The notes beneath the pieces were generated by a model. It worked only from the letters and a program-made list of their open reading frames with translations, was not told where the DNA came from and did no database searches. A program made the translations under genes and the position numbers. Shown here piece by piece: positions 5,794 to 10,252 of a stretch of DNA of 27,451 bases (position 1 is its first letter; each line of letters starts with the position of its first letter). Location of the stretch: positions 1-27,451 of the forward strand of contig JBGQJH010000001.1 of NCBI GenBank assembly GCA_041498935.1. Reading direction: 5' to 3'. Origin of the DNA: Pyrinomonadaceae bacterium. Lineage in GTDB: Bacteria > Acidobacteriota > Blastocatellia > Pyrinomonadales > Pyrinomonadaceae.

Positions 5794-6021
5794 CTAGAAG
5801 ACCGAAGCCAGCGCCCACATAATGTCCGCTAAGGCTGGGAGACCGATGTCCGTATCCAGTGCCGAAACTATGACAGCCGGTTCGGGCGTTATGTCCGGAG
5901 TATTACTGCCACCAGTGACTGGGCAAGGCTTCCCCGGCGTTTCGATGTCACCAGCATACGCTGGAACACTGAGTGCCAAAGCAAGAATTGCTGCGGTGCA
6001 GATCGCTTTCAGGGTTTTCAT
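5794..6021 (-). CDS. Small secreted peptide (75 aa; candidate signalling peptide precursor)
   Basis: MKTLKAICTAAILALALSVPAYA|GDIETPGKPCPVTGGSNTPDITPEPAVIVSALDTDIGLPALADIMWALASVF. Basic n-region, hydrophobic h-region, A-Y-A cleavage site. ATG 6021 has an upstream ggag and lies downstream of a predicted promoter, so it is preferred over the ORF-track start at 6177. Confidence 0.8.
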   Translation of the reverse strand: MKTLKAICTAAILALALSVPAYAGDIETPGKPCPVTGGSNTPDITPEPAVIVSALDTDIGLPALADIMWALASVF

Positions 6022-6112
6022 GGTTTGTTCTCCAAATTCAGTTTTGTAGGGTTGGTAAAGGCAGTTGATCACGAAGATGGAAGTCCAACTGCAGGCTCTT
6101 TTAACGAGGCGC

Positions 6113-6141
6113 ATAATAGCCGCCTCCCAGACTTCATGCAA
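6113..6141 (-). promoter_or_regulatory. sigma70-like promoter of the peptide gene
   Basis: Minus strand: TTGCAT (6141-6136), 17 nt, TATTAT (6118-6113). Confidence 0.6.
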
Positions 6142-6153
6142 GATTTCTTGCAT
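6136..6153. promoter_or_regulatory. 18-bp palindrome, candidate operator
   Basis: ATGCAAGA-TT-TCTTGCAT has perfect 8-bp arms. It overlaps the peptide-gene -35 and the CATAAT (6151-6156) possible -10 of the regulator gene. Confidence 0.55.
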
Positions 6154-6177
6154 AATACCTAAAGGGAGTGACCTCAC

Positions 6178-7740
6178 ATGAAATTAGCAGGCTCAATTCC
6201 ACCGTACGATAATGTGCTCGTTTCCAGCCTGAGCGATCGGGCGCTGGCGCTTTGCGCCCGAGCTAAGGATCTCGAGGAGGCGGGCGAGTTCGAAGATGCG
6301 CGGGCAACTATCAGTGAGTTCTGGCAGCGCATAGGCGAGCGTCCACGAGTGGAGGGACTAACCGCAATCGCGCAAGCGGAACTACTTCTCCGTGCCGGTG
6401 CTCTTTCCGGGTGGATAGGTAGTGCAGGCCAGATTTCAGGCGCGCAAGAGATCGCGAAGGACGTTATCTCAGAGAGCGCCGGAGCGTTTGAAAAACTTGG
6501 ACTGGTTGAGCGAGTCGCCGAAGCTCGGATCGACTTGTCGATCTGTTACTGGCGCGAAGGCGCTTTTGATGAGGCTCGCATAACTCTCGATGATGCGCTA
6601 CTGCGACTAGGCGATCTCGACAGCGAGCAGAGGCTCCGGGCTTTCCTGAATAAAGCCATTGTCGAAAAGGTCTCTAATCGATACAGAGAGGCTCTGCGAT
6701 TGCATCGCGAGGCTGCTCCTTTGTTTGAAGTCAGTCGCAACCATGCGCTCAAGGGCAAGTTTCATAATGCATACGCCCTGGTGCTGAAGAATCTGGGTTT
6801 GGCAGAGCACCGAGATGACTATCTGGATCGCGCCTTGATCGAGTTTTCAGCAGCGAGCTTCCATTTTGAGCAGGCAAGCCACCAGCGCTTTCATGGAGTG
6901 GTAGAAAACAACCTGGGCTTCTTGTTTGTTCATTTGGGAAGATTTCAGGATGCTCAAGAGCATCTAAATCGCGCCCGTGCCGTGGCTGTAGCTTTGAAAG
7001 ATCAAGGTTTGGTTGCGCAGGTTGATGATACGCGCGCCCGGGCCTTTATCGCTCAAGGTCAATTCTCCAAGGCAGAAACGATCGCGCAAAGTTCGGTGAA
7101 GGCCCTGGAGGAGGGCGATCAGTTATCTATGCTTGCCGAGGCGCTGACCACGCACGGCACCGCCCTCGCTCGTGTGGGTAGCTTTTCGAAAGCGCGCGCG
7201 GCGCTGGAAAAGGCAATCAGGCTGGCTCTTAACGCCGGGGATCCAGAAAGTGGCGGAGTGGCCGCACTTGCCCTCGCGGAAGAACTGGCAAGGCACCTTC
7301 CGTTCAGCGAACTGCTTGCATACTATCGAATCGCGGAATCGGAATTGATAAACTCGCAGCATCCGGAAATTCAGAATCGGCTCGGCAAATGTGCCAGGCT
7401 TCTTCTCTCAACCCAATCGCTCCAGGCCTCGGAGGACGTCAGCCGTGTTGCCTCTCGATCGAATGGGGGTGGATCGAGTCATTCGCAACTCTCTTCCGAG
7501 CAGGCTGACCCATCAACTTTTTCACTGGAAGCTTCGCTCGAAGCACAAGTGCTTCGTTACGAGGGCGAATTGATCAAGCGTGCCCTGGAGGCGTCTGAGG
7601 GCAGCATCACACGCGCAGCTCGCCTGCTGGGAGTCACTCATCAGGGACTCGCTTTTATTCTCAATGGCCGGCAAAAGAATTTGCTACCGTCGCGGAAGCC
7701 TGCGAAGCCACGCAGGCGAAGCATCATTCGTTATCATTGA
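6178..7740 (+). CDS. TPR-repeat protein with C-terminal Fis-type helix-turn-helix (putative transcriptional regulator)
   Basis: TPR-like helical repeats (VENNLGFLFVHLGRFQDAQEHLNRA; ALTTHGTALARVGSFSKARAALEKA). C-terminal EGELIKRALEASEGSITRAARLLGV is a Fis/HTH_8 signature. No receiver or AAA+ (GAFTGA) domain is visible. RBS aagggag. Confidence 0.85.
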   Translation: MKLAGSIPPYDNVLVSSLSDRALALCARAKDLEEAGEFEDARATISEFWQRIGERPRVEGLTAIAQAELLLRAGALSGWIGSAGQISGAQEIAKDVISESAGAFEKLGLVERVAEARIDLSICYWREGAFDEARITLDDALLRLGDLDSEQRLRAFLNKAIVEKVSNRYREALRLHREAAPLFEVSRNHALKGKFHNAYALVLKNLGLAEHRDDYLDRALIEFSAASFHFEQASHQRFHGVVENNLGFLFVHLGRFQDAQEHLNRARAVAVALKDQGLVAQVDDTRARAFIAQGQFSKAETIAQSSVKALEEGDQLSMLAEALTTHGTALARVGSFSKARAALEKAIRLALNAGDPESGGVAALALAEELARHLPFSELLAYYRIAESELINSQHPEIQNRLGKCARLLLSTQSLQASEDVSRVASRSNGGGSSHSQLSSEQADPSTFSLEASLEAQVLRYEGELIKRALEASEGSITRAARLLGVTHQGLAFILNGRQKNLLPSRKPAKPRRRSIIRYH

Positions 7741-9463: not shown

Positions 9464-10045
<582 letters not shown>

Positions 10046-10252
10046 TAGCAGACTCCTTTGGATTAAAACCTGGGCCACGTAGTCCGGAAAACGGGCAATC
10101 AGGCAGAGGCGTGATGGTTAAGCAAAACTTCCGTCCTCACCCTGACAAACAGCTCGCTTACAAATTGTGGAGCGCATGAACGCCGGAAGCATAAGCGTTA
10201 GCGCCCGGGGGAGCAAGTTCTAGTACAATCGGTTGACAAAGGACTCTATCGA

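What the first reader, a model, noticed from the sequence alone, without database searches (positions are those of the whole stretch)
5794..7740. Candidate peptide-signalling module: secreted GDIETPG peptide divergent from a TPR + C-terminal Fis-HTH regulator
Seen: a 75-aa ORF with a clean Sec signal peptide (A-Y-A|G). Its 52-aa mature part starts GDIETPG, has a Pro/Thr-rich linker with a partial echo (PDITPEP) and ends in a hydrophobic helix (LPALADIMWALASVF). It lies head-to-head, 156 bp away, from a 520-aa TPR-repeat protein ending in a Fis-type HTH with no receiver or AAA+ domain. Established: in RRNPP/Rgg systems (PlcR/PapR, NprR/NprX, Rap/Phr, Rgg/SHP) of Bacillota, a TPR domain binds a re-imported processed peptide encoded next door; in DNA-binding members the HTH is N-terminal. 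Inference: this may be an architecturally distinct (HTH at C-terminus) peptide-receptor pair in a probable diderm Acidobacterium. Alternatively the peptide is the regulated output, such as an amphipathic effector.
Basis: partly seen in the sequence, partly recalled or inferred. Interest (0 to 1): 0.85.

Follow-up and report, generated by a model that had tools for sequence, protein, structure and literature searches.

The report
Secreted repeat-peptide paired with TPR sensor
A soil and sediment Acidobacterium (family Pyrinomonadaceae) encodes a small exported peptide head-to-head with a cytoplasmic TPR-sensor regulator, and sequence co-evolution across about 150 related gene pairs suggests the peptide is the sensor's ligand, a peptide-signalling design so far described only in Gram-positive bacteria.

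Summary
A 75-aa ORF (5794-6021, minus strand) has a Sec-type signal peptide and lies 156 bp head-to-head from a 520-aa TPR + HTH_8 protein with no receiver or AAA+ domain.

The pair is not an accident. A divergent peptide gene of the same build sits beside 95 of 107 homologous regulator loci and 58 of 59 histidine-kinase-type loci.

The TPR module occurs in 52 of 60 Pyrinomonadaceae genera sampled. It was not found in 143 genomes of other Acidobacteriota families. It is fused to four outputs: HTH_8, HTH_8+receiver, sigma-54 AAA++HTH_8, and histidine kinase+receiver.

The propeptides carry 1-9 copies of a 7-8-residue unit (here GDIETPG) that starts right after the signal-peptidase site. Copies stay identical in protein while diverging at synonymous sites.

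A complex prediction gave weak support only. It puts GDIE into the concave TPR groove. Those groove residues are frozen when the unit is unchanged and change when it changes.

Best reading: a peptide ligand-receptor (RRNPP-like) module of new build. Binding, processing and re-import are unproven.

This scan has met the same family before on other DNA (e1-2985151, e1-3808598, e1-5287500). I found no publication describing it.

The parts
5794..6021 (-). Propeptide gene (75 aa; stop codon 5794-5796)
   Evidence: Homologues sit next to regulator homologues in 95 of 107 and 58 of 59 loci. A profile finds 603 protein clusters, those that carry a source name being almost all 'hypothetical protein'.
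5953..6021 (-). Sec-type signal peptide, residues 1-23 (MKTLK / AICTAAILALALSV / PAYA)
   Evidence: Read from the sequence. A23 and G24 are near-invariant in alignment A2. The best 12-residue Kyte-Doolittle mean in the N-terminal 30 residues is 2.6. No dedicated predictor was run.
5932..5952 (-). Repeat unit 1, GDIETPG (residues 24-30): the first residues of the mature chain and the candidate ligand
   Evidence: The unit starts right after the cleavage site in 137 of 142 parsed propeptides. The complex prediction places residues 24-27 in the TPR groove. The unit co-varies with the groove residues.
5878..5898 (-). Degenerate unit echo PDITPEP (residues 42-48)
   Evidence: Read from the sequence. 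Relatives carry full second copies at comparable positions.
5833..5853 (-). Degenerate last unit TDIGLPA (residues 57-63), directly before the C-terminal helix
   Evidence: Orthologues have GDIGMPG, GEINTPG or GEMGTPG at this place.
5797..5841 (-). C-terminal hydrophobic/amphipathic tail LPALADIMWALASVF (residues 61-75); role unknown
   Evidence: A tail of this kind ends every family member, and its sequence is class-specific. Its changes do not track groove changes.
6022..6177 (.). Shared divergent control region
   Evidence: Alignment A3 of 15 orthologous intergenic regions shows invariant blocks.
6136..6153 (.). Inverted repeat ATGCAAGA-TT-TCTTGCAT (core TGCAAG-N4-CTTGCA): candidate operator of the HTH_8 domain
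   Evidence: The core is invariant in A3. It lies about 40 bp before the regulator ATG in most HTH-class loci, with class-specific variants. Only two perfect copies occur in the 2.79-Mb assembly.
6101..6113 (-). Invariant block GCGCATAATAGCC; on the minus strand it reads TATTAT, a -10-like hexamer for the peptide gene
   Evidence: Invariance is. The promoter role is inferred only, and the consensus scan did not list it.
6178..7740 (+). Cytoplasmic TPR + HTH_8 regulator (520 aa)
6226..7467 (+). TPR sensor superhelix (residues about 17-430), 19 helices
   Evidence: The AlphaFold2 model has mean pLDDT 90.6. By structure it resembles phage phi105 Rap (Z 27.2), MalT domain III (Z 27.0), NprR (Z 23.6) and AimR (Z 22.1).
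6658..7143 (+). Span holding the 19 predicted groove contact residues (161, 164-165, 197-198, 201, 204-205, 241, 244-245, 248, 278, 281-282, 284-285, 288, 321). It includes invariant N245 and near-invariant E243, N244 and Q281.
   Evidence: The contacts come, conservation and co-evolution with the unit.
7561..7650 (+). Fis-type HTH_8 DNA-binding domain (residues 462-491)
   Evidence: Pfam PF02954, 29.9 bits against a cut-off of 22.

Best explanation
The two genes form a cognate peptide-ligand and receptor module.

Shown:
- The small gene encodes an exported precursor. Its mature chain begins with a 7-residue unit (GDIETPG), followed by degenerate repeats of it and a hydrophobic tail.
- The neighbouring protein is a soluble TPR superhelix fused to a Fis-type HTH.
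- This peptide-plus-TPR pair is the conserved, duplicating unit across Pyrinomonadaceae, whatever output domain follows the TPR.
- The repeat unit and the concave-groove residues of the TPR domain co-evolve.

Inferred:
- The precursor is exported by Sec and cut by signal peptidase after AYA.
- Further proteolysis releases short unit peptides. In the histidine-kinase class the units end in K or R, as in a polyprotein precursor.
- The peptide returns to the cytoplasm and docks N-terminus-first into the TPR groove, held by the conserved Asn pair.
- Docking changes how the HTH_8 dimer acts at the conserved inverted repeat TGCAAG-N4-CTTGCA between the two genes, and so controls the peptide promoter and the regulator's own promoter.

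The biological role would be cell-cell signalling of the RRNPP kind. No such role has been shown.
For: 1. Conserved pairing. A divergent signal-peptide ORF lies 123-277 bp from 95 of 107 regulator loci and 256-535 bp from 58 of 59 histidine-kinase-class loci. Other genes of at least 250 aa in the same loci gave only 9 crude detector hits, none of this family. No third gene is conserved across paralogues.

2. The TPR module behaves as a portable input domain. It precedes HTH_8, HTH_8+Response_reg, Sigma54_activat+HTH_8, or HisKA+HATPase_c+Response_reg, and each type keeps a peptide gene.

3. In the bEBP class the sigma-54-type element lies after the regulator. It faces a receiver gene, mostly followed by an AraC-type HTH gene, never the peptide gene. 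There the peptide is therefore not the direct output.

4. Repeat units within one propeptide are identical or near-identical and paralogue-specific. Yet 86 of 143 identical-residue codon pairs and 801 of 1925 differ synonymously. These are old copies held to one sequence.

5. Complex prediction gave weak support: ipSAE 0.38 against a best control of 0.01. The mark was reached by 58 of 80 solved complexes and 2 of 110 mismatched pairs. The confident contacts are peptide residues 24-27 with 19 groove residues.

6. Co-evolution in 66 disjoint nearest-neighbour pairs. The groove-to-rest substitution ratio is 0.10 when the unit is identical, 0.82 for 1-2 changes and 1.14 for 3 or more. This contrast exceeds all 5000 random 19-column sets. 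At matched background divergence (10-25%) the groove differs by 2% when the unit is identical and by 20% when it differs at 3 or more positions (p = 0.004).

7. Fold. RRNPP receptors rank 2, 5, 8, 17, 23 and 29 among 48,161 chains.

8. A conserved candidate operator lies between the genes.

9. Opp-type binding-protein genes exist in the genome.
Against: - There is no experimental evidence of secretion, processing, uptake or binding.
- The organism is presumably a diderm, so the peptide would have to cross the outer membrane twice. No dedicated exporter, protease or importer is linked to the pair.
- The complex score is only 'weak support'. The partner's pLDDT is about 35 and the three runs share only 23-34% of contacts. 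My two alignments were in the same row order, so the predicted interface may already draw on the co-variation that I then measured.
- The universally present C-terminal hydrophobic tail has no role in this model.
- Seven regulator loci have no such peptide gene within 2.5 kb.
- TPR superhelices in general score high against one another, so the resemblance to Rap and NprR is not specific.
- Expression evidence is thin: contigs of a relative in a single soil metatranscriptome.
Confidence: 0.55

Rival explanations
1. The peptide is the regulated product, not the signal. The TPR regulator senses something else, such as a protein partner or a metabolite, and switches on the neighbouring gene for a small secreted amphipathic effector (a surface-active, adhesive or antimicrobial peptide).
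For: - The divergent arrangement has a conserved inverted repeat at the peptide promoter.
- The conserved hydrophobic/amphipathic C-terminal tail is otherwise unexplained.
- In one soil metatranscriptome the peptide region of a relative is covered while the regulator is hardly covered.
Against: - This reading does not explain why the groove residues of the sensor track the peptide's repeat unit.
- It does not explain why soluble histidine kinases and bEBPs keep the peptide gene, given that the bEBP's sigma-54 element points to other genes.
- Tail changes do not correlate with groove changes.
- An autoinduced signal gene would show the same promoter layout, so the layout does not discriminate.
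Confidence: 0.18
2. Export-coupled switch. The TPR domain binds the repeat units of the still-unexported precursor in the cytoplasm. The regulator is held or released according to how fast the precursor is secreted, in the way FlgM export frees sigma-28. No re-import is needed.
For: - It explains the co-evolution of unit and groove and the multivalent tandem repeats.
- It avoids the need to cross two membranes on the way back.
- No importer is linked to the pair.
Against: - The first unit always starts exactly at the signal-peptidase site, and the prediction docks the free N-terminus. That N-terminus exists only after export.
- K/R-delimited units in the histidine-kinase class look like a processing precursor.
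- No known precedent joins a Sec substrate and a TPR regulator in this way.
Confidence: 0.17
3. The small ORF is a chance open frame, or a conserved non-coding leader, with no peptide product.
For: The ORF is short, matches no Pfam or NCBIfam family, and has no proteomic evidence.
Against: - The frame, the signal peptide, the unit motif and the tail are conserved in about 150 loci while the DNA diverges.
- The synonymous-only divergence between repeat units shows selection on the protein.
- A ribosome-binding site lies at the right distance.
Confidence: 0.02

Closest known systems
RRNPP/RRNPPA peptide quorum-sensing pairs of Bacillota and their phages and plasmids (Rap-Phr, NprR-NprX, PlcR-PapR, PrgX, Rgg-SHP, AimR-AimP)
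   Same: - A cytoplasmic all-helical TPR-type receptor is encoded next to a small gene for a Sec-exported propeptide.
- Many diverged paralogous pairs occur per genome.
- Propeptides carry tandemly duplicated units, as described for RRNPPA in PMC11343458.
- The presumed ligand is 5-10 residues long.
- The overall fold resembles phage phi105 Rap (8rte, Z 27.2), NprR (4gpk, Z 23.6) and AimR (5xyb, Z 22.1).
- A palindromic box sits between receptor and peptide genes, as for PlcR (from my own knowledge).
   Different: - There is no sequence homology.
- The DNA-binding domain is a C-terminal Fis-type HTH_8, not an N-terminal XRE-type HTH.
- The same sensor is also fused to a sigma-54 AAA+ domain, a receiver, or a histidine kinase.
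- The candidate active unit is at the N-terminus of the mature chain, not the C-terminus.
- A conserved hydrophobic C-terminal tail is present.
- The host is an Acidobacteriota lineage. The RRNPP surveys I read cover Gram-positive bacteria and their mobile elements, and no paper in the library holds both 'RRNPP' and 'Acidobacteria'.
Bacterial enhancer-binding proteins / NtrC family (sensor domain + sigma-54 AAA+ + HTH_8)
   Same: - The C-terminal HTH_8 is present.
- Paralogues of about 750 aa have the full Sigma54_activat + AAA_lid_14 + HTH_8 architecture, with a -24/-12-type element downstream.
- L094 retains only the AAA lid, which suggests the 520-aa form arose by loss of the ATPase.
   Different: - The window's protein has no AAA+ domain, so it cannot act on sigma-54.
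- The input domain is a roughly 410-residue TPR superhelix rather than a receiver, GAF, PAS or V4R domain.
MalT domain III and LGN/Pins-type TPR superhelices that clamp extended peptides
   Same: These are among the best structural matches: MalT DIII with Z 27.0 and TM 0.62/0.72, and LGN/Pins at the top of the Foldseek list. LGN binds extended peptides along its concave face.
   Different: They are unrelated in sequence and context, have no adjacent peptide gene, and MalT senses maltotriose and ATP.
Tandem-repeat pheromone precursors such as yeast alpha-factor (from my own knowledge)
   Same: A signal peptide is followed by several identical short units separated by basic residues. This is clearest in the histidine-kinase class, for example GDITGKA x9 and (S/T)GTISTT(K/R) x5-7.
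   Different: Alpha-factor is eukaryotic, is sensed by a surface GPCR, and has no evolutionary relation to this family.

Membership tests
RRNPP/RRNPPA quorum-sensing systems | Cytoplasmic receptor whose peptide-binding domain is a TPR-type helical array | tested here: met
   Pfam TPR models match. There is no hydrophobic segment. The AF2 model is a 19-helix superhelix with pLDDT 90.6.
RRNPP/RRNPPA quorum-sensing systems | Sequence homology to known members (Rap, NprR, PlcR, PrgX, Rgg, AimR) | tested here: not met
   No RRNPP family appears in Pfam or NCBIfam. A profile search of all PDB sequences hits only kinesin light chain, consensus TPRs and MalT, and no RRNPP chain.
RRNPP/RRNPPA quorum-sensing systems | Structural similarity of the receptor to known members | tested here: met
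   VIA-align gives phi105 Rap Z 27.2 (343 residues, 3.9 A), NprR 23.6, AimR 22.1, RapI 20.4 and PlcR 17.9. Other TPR superhelices score as high, so this is not specific.
RRNPP/RRNPPA quorum-sensing systems | Effector domain (XRE-type HTH or 3-helix bundle) at the N-terminus | tested here: not met
   The HTH_8 is at residues 462-491 of 520, and the N-terminus goes straight into the TPR array.
RRNPP/RRNPPA quorum-sensing systems | Adjacent small gene for an exported propeptide | tested here: met
   Present in 95 of 107 and 58 of 59 loci.
RRNPP/RRNPPA quorum-sensing systems | Mature peptide binds inside the TPR groove of its cognate receptor | tested here: inconclusive
   The complex prediction gave weak support (0.38 against a best control of 0.01). 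There is a strong co-evolution signal between unit and groove. No binding measurement exists.
RRNPP/RRNPPA quorum-sensing systems | Extracellular processing and re-import by an oligopeptide permease | not testable with these tools
   SBP_bac_5 (Opp/Dpp-type) genes are present in the assembly. This shows only that such a route is possible.
RRNPP/RRNPPA quorum-sensing systems | Host among Bacillota or their mobile elements | tested here: not met
   All record titles name Pyrinomonadaceae, Blastocatellia or Acidobacteriota MAGs.
NtrC-type bacterial enhancer-binding proteins | Central sigma-54-interacting AAA+ domain | tested here: not met
   It is absent from the window's protein. It is present in 750-aa paralogues (195 bits).
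NtrC-type bacterial enhancer-binding proteins | C-terminal Fis-type HTH_8 | tested here: met
   PF02954, 29.9 bits against a cut-off of 22.

The most novel reading that the evidence does not exclude
Pyrinomonadaceae, which are diderm soil Acidobacteria, run a family-wide peptide-pheromone system that arose independently of RRNPP. Sec-exported precursors yield multiple copies of a 7-8-residue peptide. Each peptide is read in the cytoplasm by its own co-evolving TPR sensor. That sensor is a plug-in input domain for four kinds of signalling output: a Fis-type repressor/activator, a sigma-54 enhancer-binding protein, a receiver fusion and a soluble histidine kinase. Up to 17 matches to the sensor were counted in one genome (G028).
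Probability: 0.45. Interest if true: 0.9.

Novelty: new variant of a known kind. Interest (0 to 1): 0.8.

Why it matters
In the literature I read, genetically encoded peptide signals read by cytoplasmic TPR receptors are described in Bacillota and their mobile elements. Gram-negative communication is described there mostly in terms of small molecules.

If this module signals as proposed, it would bring peptide quorum sensing to a major and poorly cultured soil phylum. It would show that the design evolved more than once. It would add a new sensory input domain for enhancer-binding proteins and histidine kinases.

It also gives directly testable pairs: a defined heptapeptide, a soluble domain that models with high confidence, and a defined operator. 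The many diverged paralogues are a natural specificity set for studying peptide recognition.

Tried and rejected
- **Paralogues in the window's own genome.** None were found. The MAG is 70% complete and holds one copy of each gene.
- **A sigma-54 promoter in front of the peptide gene.** My first strict pattern found nothing anywhere. A looser scoring then showed elements only downstream of bEBP-class regulators. The earlier 'none within 6 kb' result was an artefact of my pattern.
- **Plain mutual information between unit and TPR columns.** The split between classes dominated the result, so it was uninformative. I replaced it with disjoint nearest-neighbour contrasts.
- **First repeat-similarity statistic.** Identity of the N-terminal unit to later units was only modestly higher within a peptide than between peptides (3.8 against 3.0 of 7), because many peptides have a single clear unit.
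- **Conserved third gene (protease, exporter, importer, modifying enzyme).** None is shared across paralogues. This argues against a RiPP cluster.
- **PEP-CTERM or other sorting-signal reading of the tail.** Rejected on the sequence, because no basic cluster follows the hydrophobic stretch.
- **Expression.** Only DNA metagenomes hold the locus well. One metatranscriptome holds pieces of a relative, which is not enough to claim transcription.
- **Consensus promoter and terminator scan.** It did not list the proposed peptide promoter and found no terminator.
- **Complex prediction.** The verdict was weak support only, and I do not count it as proof.

Unpublished genomes: locus L013 (G032) is 1 of the 107 loci counted. 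G077, G092 and G170 are 3 of the 121 genomes in the family tally. No conclusion depends on them.
Full report
**1. What is there.**
The window holds, exactly as described, a 75-aa ORF on the minus strand (5794-6021) and a 520-aa ORF on the plus strand (6178-7740), head-to-head and 156 bp apart.

The small protein has these parts:
- a classical Sec-type leader (MKTLK, a 14-residue hydrophobic core, then PAYA);
- a mature chain beginning GDIETPG;
- two weaker echoes of that unit (PDITPEP and TDIGLPA);
- a hydrophobic tail (LPALADIMWALASVF).

The large protein is a TPR array followed by a Fis-type HTH_8 at residues 462-491. It has no receiver and no AAA+ domain and no membrane-like segment. Neither Pfam nor NCBIfam knows the small protein. 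The flanking genes are housekeeping ones: ATP-dependent DNA ligase, a DsbA/SurA-like protein, TatA/TatC and an ABC1 kinase.

**2. The pairing is conserved, and it is the unit of inheritance.**
The genome is a 70%-complete MAG. Record titles of its relatives place it in Pyrinomonadaceae (Blastocatellia, Acidobacteriota).

- All 36 same-genus genomes sampled hold homologues of the regulator, with up to 17 matches per genome.
- Nearly every tblastn hit of the peptide in those genomes lies 150-250 bp divergent from one of these homologues.
- A uniform detector was applied to 107 regulator loci with enough upstream DNA. It looked for a divergent ORF of 40-100 aa with a basic N-terminus, a hydrophobic core and a hydrophobic tail. 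It found one in 95 loci, and two more loci were positive with another filter.
- Seven loci have none within 2.5 kb.
- The same detector on other genes of at least 250 aa in the same loci (287 scanned, but some of these were mis-tagged regulator ORFs) gave only nine unrelated hits. Eight of these were fragments of one TGA-interrupted peroxiredoxin.

Orthologues of the window's pair share its housekeeping neighbours. Paralogues sit elsewhere, and no third gene travels with the pair.

The TPR profile matches 98 of 121 Pyrinomonadaceae genomes, covering 52 of 60 genera. It matches none of 143 genomes from other Acidobacteriota families at E 1e-20. A profile of the peptides finds 603 protein clusters in the 5.8-billion-protein set; those that carry a source name are almost all called 'hypothetical protein'.

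**3. The TPR domain is a portable input module.**
The roughly 410-residue TPR domain is followed by one of several outputs:

| Length | Architecture |
|---|---|
| 450-520 aa | HTH_8 alone |
| about 630 aa | HTH_8 + Response_reg |
| about 750 aa | Sigma54_activat + AAA_lid_14 + HTH_8 (a full enhancer-binding protein) |
| about 800 aa | HisKA + HATPase_c + Response_reg (a soluble hybrid kinase next to an NtrC-type regulator) |

One form (L094) keeps only the AAA lid, which suggests the 520-aa type is an enhancer-binding protein that lost its ATPase.

Every class keeps a divergent peptide gene. In the kinase class, 58 of 59 loci have one.

In the enhancer-binding class, a -24/-12-type element (TGGCCC(G/A)-N5-TGCA) lies 76-94 bp after the regulator's stop codon in 8 of 15 loci. 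In the loci examined it is followed by a single-domain receiver and/or a small AraC-type HTH gene. No such element faces the peptide gene. My first, too-strict pattern had missed these elements. So in that class the peptide gene is not the direct output of its neighbour.

**4. Anatomy of the propeptides.**
All of them share the same layout: a signal peptide ending in a small-x-small site, then a unit of the form G-[DENQT]-[IMV]-x-[TS]-[PG]-G.

- The unit is present in 1-4 copies in the HTH, receiver and AAA classes, often followed by a poly-proline run.
- A variable acidic Thr/Ser-rich stretch follows.
- A class-specific hydrophobic tail ends the chain.
- In the kinase class the units form long tandem arrays: GDITGKA x9, GNISGxx x6, (S/T)GTISTT(K/R) x5-7, GHIAGGRAA x5 and GNIGMRTT x5. 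These units mostly end in K or R, like a polyprotein precursor.

Within one propeptide the copies share the same unusual residues (GQTDTPPC x2, GDMAGPG x2, GEISGPG x2), while other paralogues use other units. These copies are not recent duplications. Of the codon pairs that encode the same residue in two copies, 86 of 143 differ synonymously in the first set (in L110 all 8 codons differ). In the kinase class the figure is 801 of 1925. Selection therefore keeps the copies of one precursor identical at the protein level. That is expected if they all have to fit one receptor.

**5. Structure and predicted contact.**
The TPR domain models confidently (pLDDT 90.6, 19 helices).

- By sequence, the only solved relatives are generic TPRs such as kinesin light chain.
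- By Foldseek, the top matches are LGN/Pins-peptide complexes and MalT domain III.
- An exhaustive structural comparison ranks the APPBP2 degron receptor first (Z 30.5). It is followed by phage phi105 Rap with its peptide (27.2), MalT domain III (27.0), NprR-NprX (23.6), AimR (22.1), RapI (20.4) and PlcR (17.9).

The fold is thus of the kind that clamps short extended peptides, and RRNPP receptors are among its nearest neighbours. Many TPR superhelices score similarly, so this is not specific.

The complex prediction of the TPR domain with the 52-residue mature chain gave 'weak support'. The score was 0.38 against a best control of 0.01. That mark was reached by 58 of 80 solved complexes and 2 of 110 mismatched pairs, but passes at 0.60 or under are more often wrong than right unless the guess was already likely. 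The partner's pLDDT was about 35 and agreement between runs was low.

The confident contacts are the first four mature residues (G24-E27) with 19 residues on the concave face, spaced one TPR repeat apart. They include invariant N245 and near-invariant N244 and Q281.

**6. Co-evolution test.**
I took 66 disjoint nearest-neighbour pairs of TPR domains from about 140 non-redundant TPR-peptide pairs. For each pair I compared substitutions at the 19 predicted groove positions with the rest of the domain, as a function of how many of the 7 unit positions differ.

| Unit positions that differ | Groove-to-rest substitution ratio |
|---|---|
| 0 | 0.10 |
| 1-2 | 0.82 |
| 3 or more | 1.14 |

- The contrast (1.04) exceeds all 5000 random 19-column sets, which have mean -0.01 and sd 0.21.
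- Eight of the 19 groove columns are among the 30 columns with the best contrast. About 1.5 would be expected by chance.
- At matched background divergence (10-25%), groove residues differ by 2.0% when the unit is identical (n=8), 12% for 1-2 changes (n=17) and 20% for 3 or more (n=11). The Mann-Whitney p is 0.004.
- Changes in the C-terminal tail do not track groove changes (rho -0.02).

One caveat applies. The interface set came from a predictor that saw my two alignments in the same row order, so the set may not be fully independent of the signal. The signal itself is in the sequences.

**7. Control region.**
The inverted repeat at 6136-6153 (core TGCAAG-N4-CTTGCA) is invariant among 15 orthologous intergenic regions. 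It lies about 40 bp before the regulator's ATG in most HTH-class loci. Class-specific variants are GCAAGGTTCCTTGC, TGCAAGAATTCTTGCA and TTGCAAA...TTTGCAA.

Only one other perfect copy exists in the assembly, upstream of an enoyl-CoA hydratase gene. This fits an operator for a dimeric HTH_8 that serves both divergent promoters, as another first-stage note (e1-5301742) proposed. The promoter assignments themselves are inferred, and the consensus scan did not list them.

**8. Reading.**
The evidence favours a cognate ligand-receptor pair in which the repeated N-terminal unit of the exported peptide is what the TPR groove recognises.

- The simplest mechanism is the RRNPP one: export, processing, re-entry, binding and a change in output. 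Opp-type binding-protein genes are present, but that is not specific.
- The peptide-as-output rival does not explain the co-evolution or the kinase and enhancer-binding classes.
- An export-coupled switch, in which the TPR domain binds the unexported precursor, remains a serious rival, because it removes the two-membrane problem.
- The role of the hydrophobic tail is unexplained in all readings.

**9. Known or new.**
By function the closest system is RRNPP/RRNPPA. By descent the module is not a member:
- there is no sequence homology;
- the DNA-binding domain is of another type and sits at the other end of the protein;
- the active part of the propeptide is at the other end of the chain;
- the phylum is different.

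The two RRNPP surveys I opened cover Gram-positive bacteria and their mobile elements. No paper in the library holds both 'RRNPP' and 'Acidobacteria'. The four papers that mention Pyrinomonadaceae together with quorum sensing are, by title and abstract, community or resistome surveys.

This scan has met the family before on other DNA:
- e1-2985151, a follow-up report on a secreted mini-protein paired with a TPR regulator in soil Acidobacteria;
- e1-3808598 and e1-5287500, first-stage notes on sister loci.

It is therefore new to the literature I could search, but not new to this project.

**10. Verdict.**
This is a new variant of a known kind, of high interest, and it awaits binding and peptidomics experiments.

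Noticed in passing
L111, L116, L120, L121, L122, L127, L134, L140: 76-94 bp after the regulator stop codon: In the enhancer-binding (AAA+) class a sigma-54-type element TGGCCC(G/A)-N5-TGCA follows the regulator gene. In the loci I annotated it precedes a single-domain receiver gene and/or a small AraC-type HTH gene. This is probably the real output operon of that class.
   Followed up: partly
L100:3361-5229 (minus strand) and about 10 orthologous loci: A CstA carbon-starvation transporter gene (PF02554, 723 bits) lies just downstream of the peptide gene on the same strand in one orthologous group. From my own knowledge, CstA has been linked to peptide or pyruvate uptake. This may be plain synteny.
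   Followed up: no
L094:5941-7671: A 577-aa relative has TPR + AAA_lid_14 + HTH_8 but no ATPase core and no nearby peptide gene. It looks like an intermediate between the enhancer-binding form and the 520-aa form.
   Followed up: partly
window about 6062-6096: A conserved inverted repeat GCAGTTG-N~19-CAACTGC lies in the presumed leader of the peptide gene. It is partly invariant in the intergenic alignment A3. It could be a leader hairpin or a second operator.
   Followed up: no
G000:C41:9555-9570 (locus L167:1501-1516): This is the only other perfect TGCAAG-N4-CTTGCA in the assembly. It lies in the gap between a secreted 353-aa protein gene and an enoyl-CoA hydratase gene and could be a second target site. 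About 0.2-0.3 perfect copies would be expected by chance.
   Followed up: partly
window 9464-10048 and orthologous loci (e.g. L066, L067, L071, L075): The small-ORF detector repeatedly caught signal-peptide fragments ending ...VLAFTGG at an in-frame TGA upstream of the ABC1 kinase gene. They are conserved in 8 loci. This fits the exported seleno-peroxiredoxin proposed in note e1-5301743.
   Followed up: no
L250 (record CAVSXG010000002.1): A kinase-class protein 82% identical to the Pyrinomonadaceae query, with its peptide gene, sits on a 2.3-Mb contig labelled 'uncultured Chloroflexia bacterium'. This is either a mislabelled bin or a transfer.
   Followed up: no
L148 (G028:C2:2423000-2429000) and L120:3907-9224: Two complete peptide-plus-regulator pairs lie in tandem, which shows that the pair duplicates as a unit.
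   Followed up: no
window 5947-6127, run X25: Contigs of a soil metatranscriptome from a relative cover the signal-peptide part and leader of the peptide gene at word depth about 8. They cover almost none of the regulator. One contig continues into the relative's own TGCAAGGTTTCTTG palindrome. DNA carry-over cannot be excluded.
   Followed up: partly
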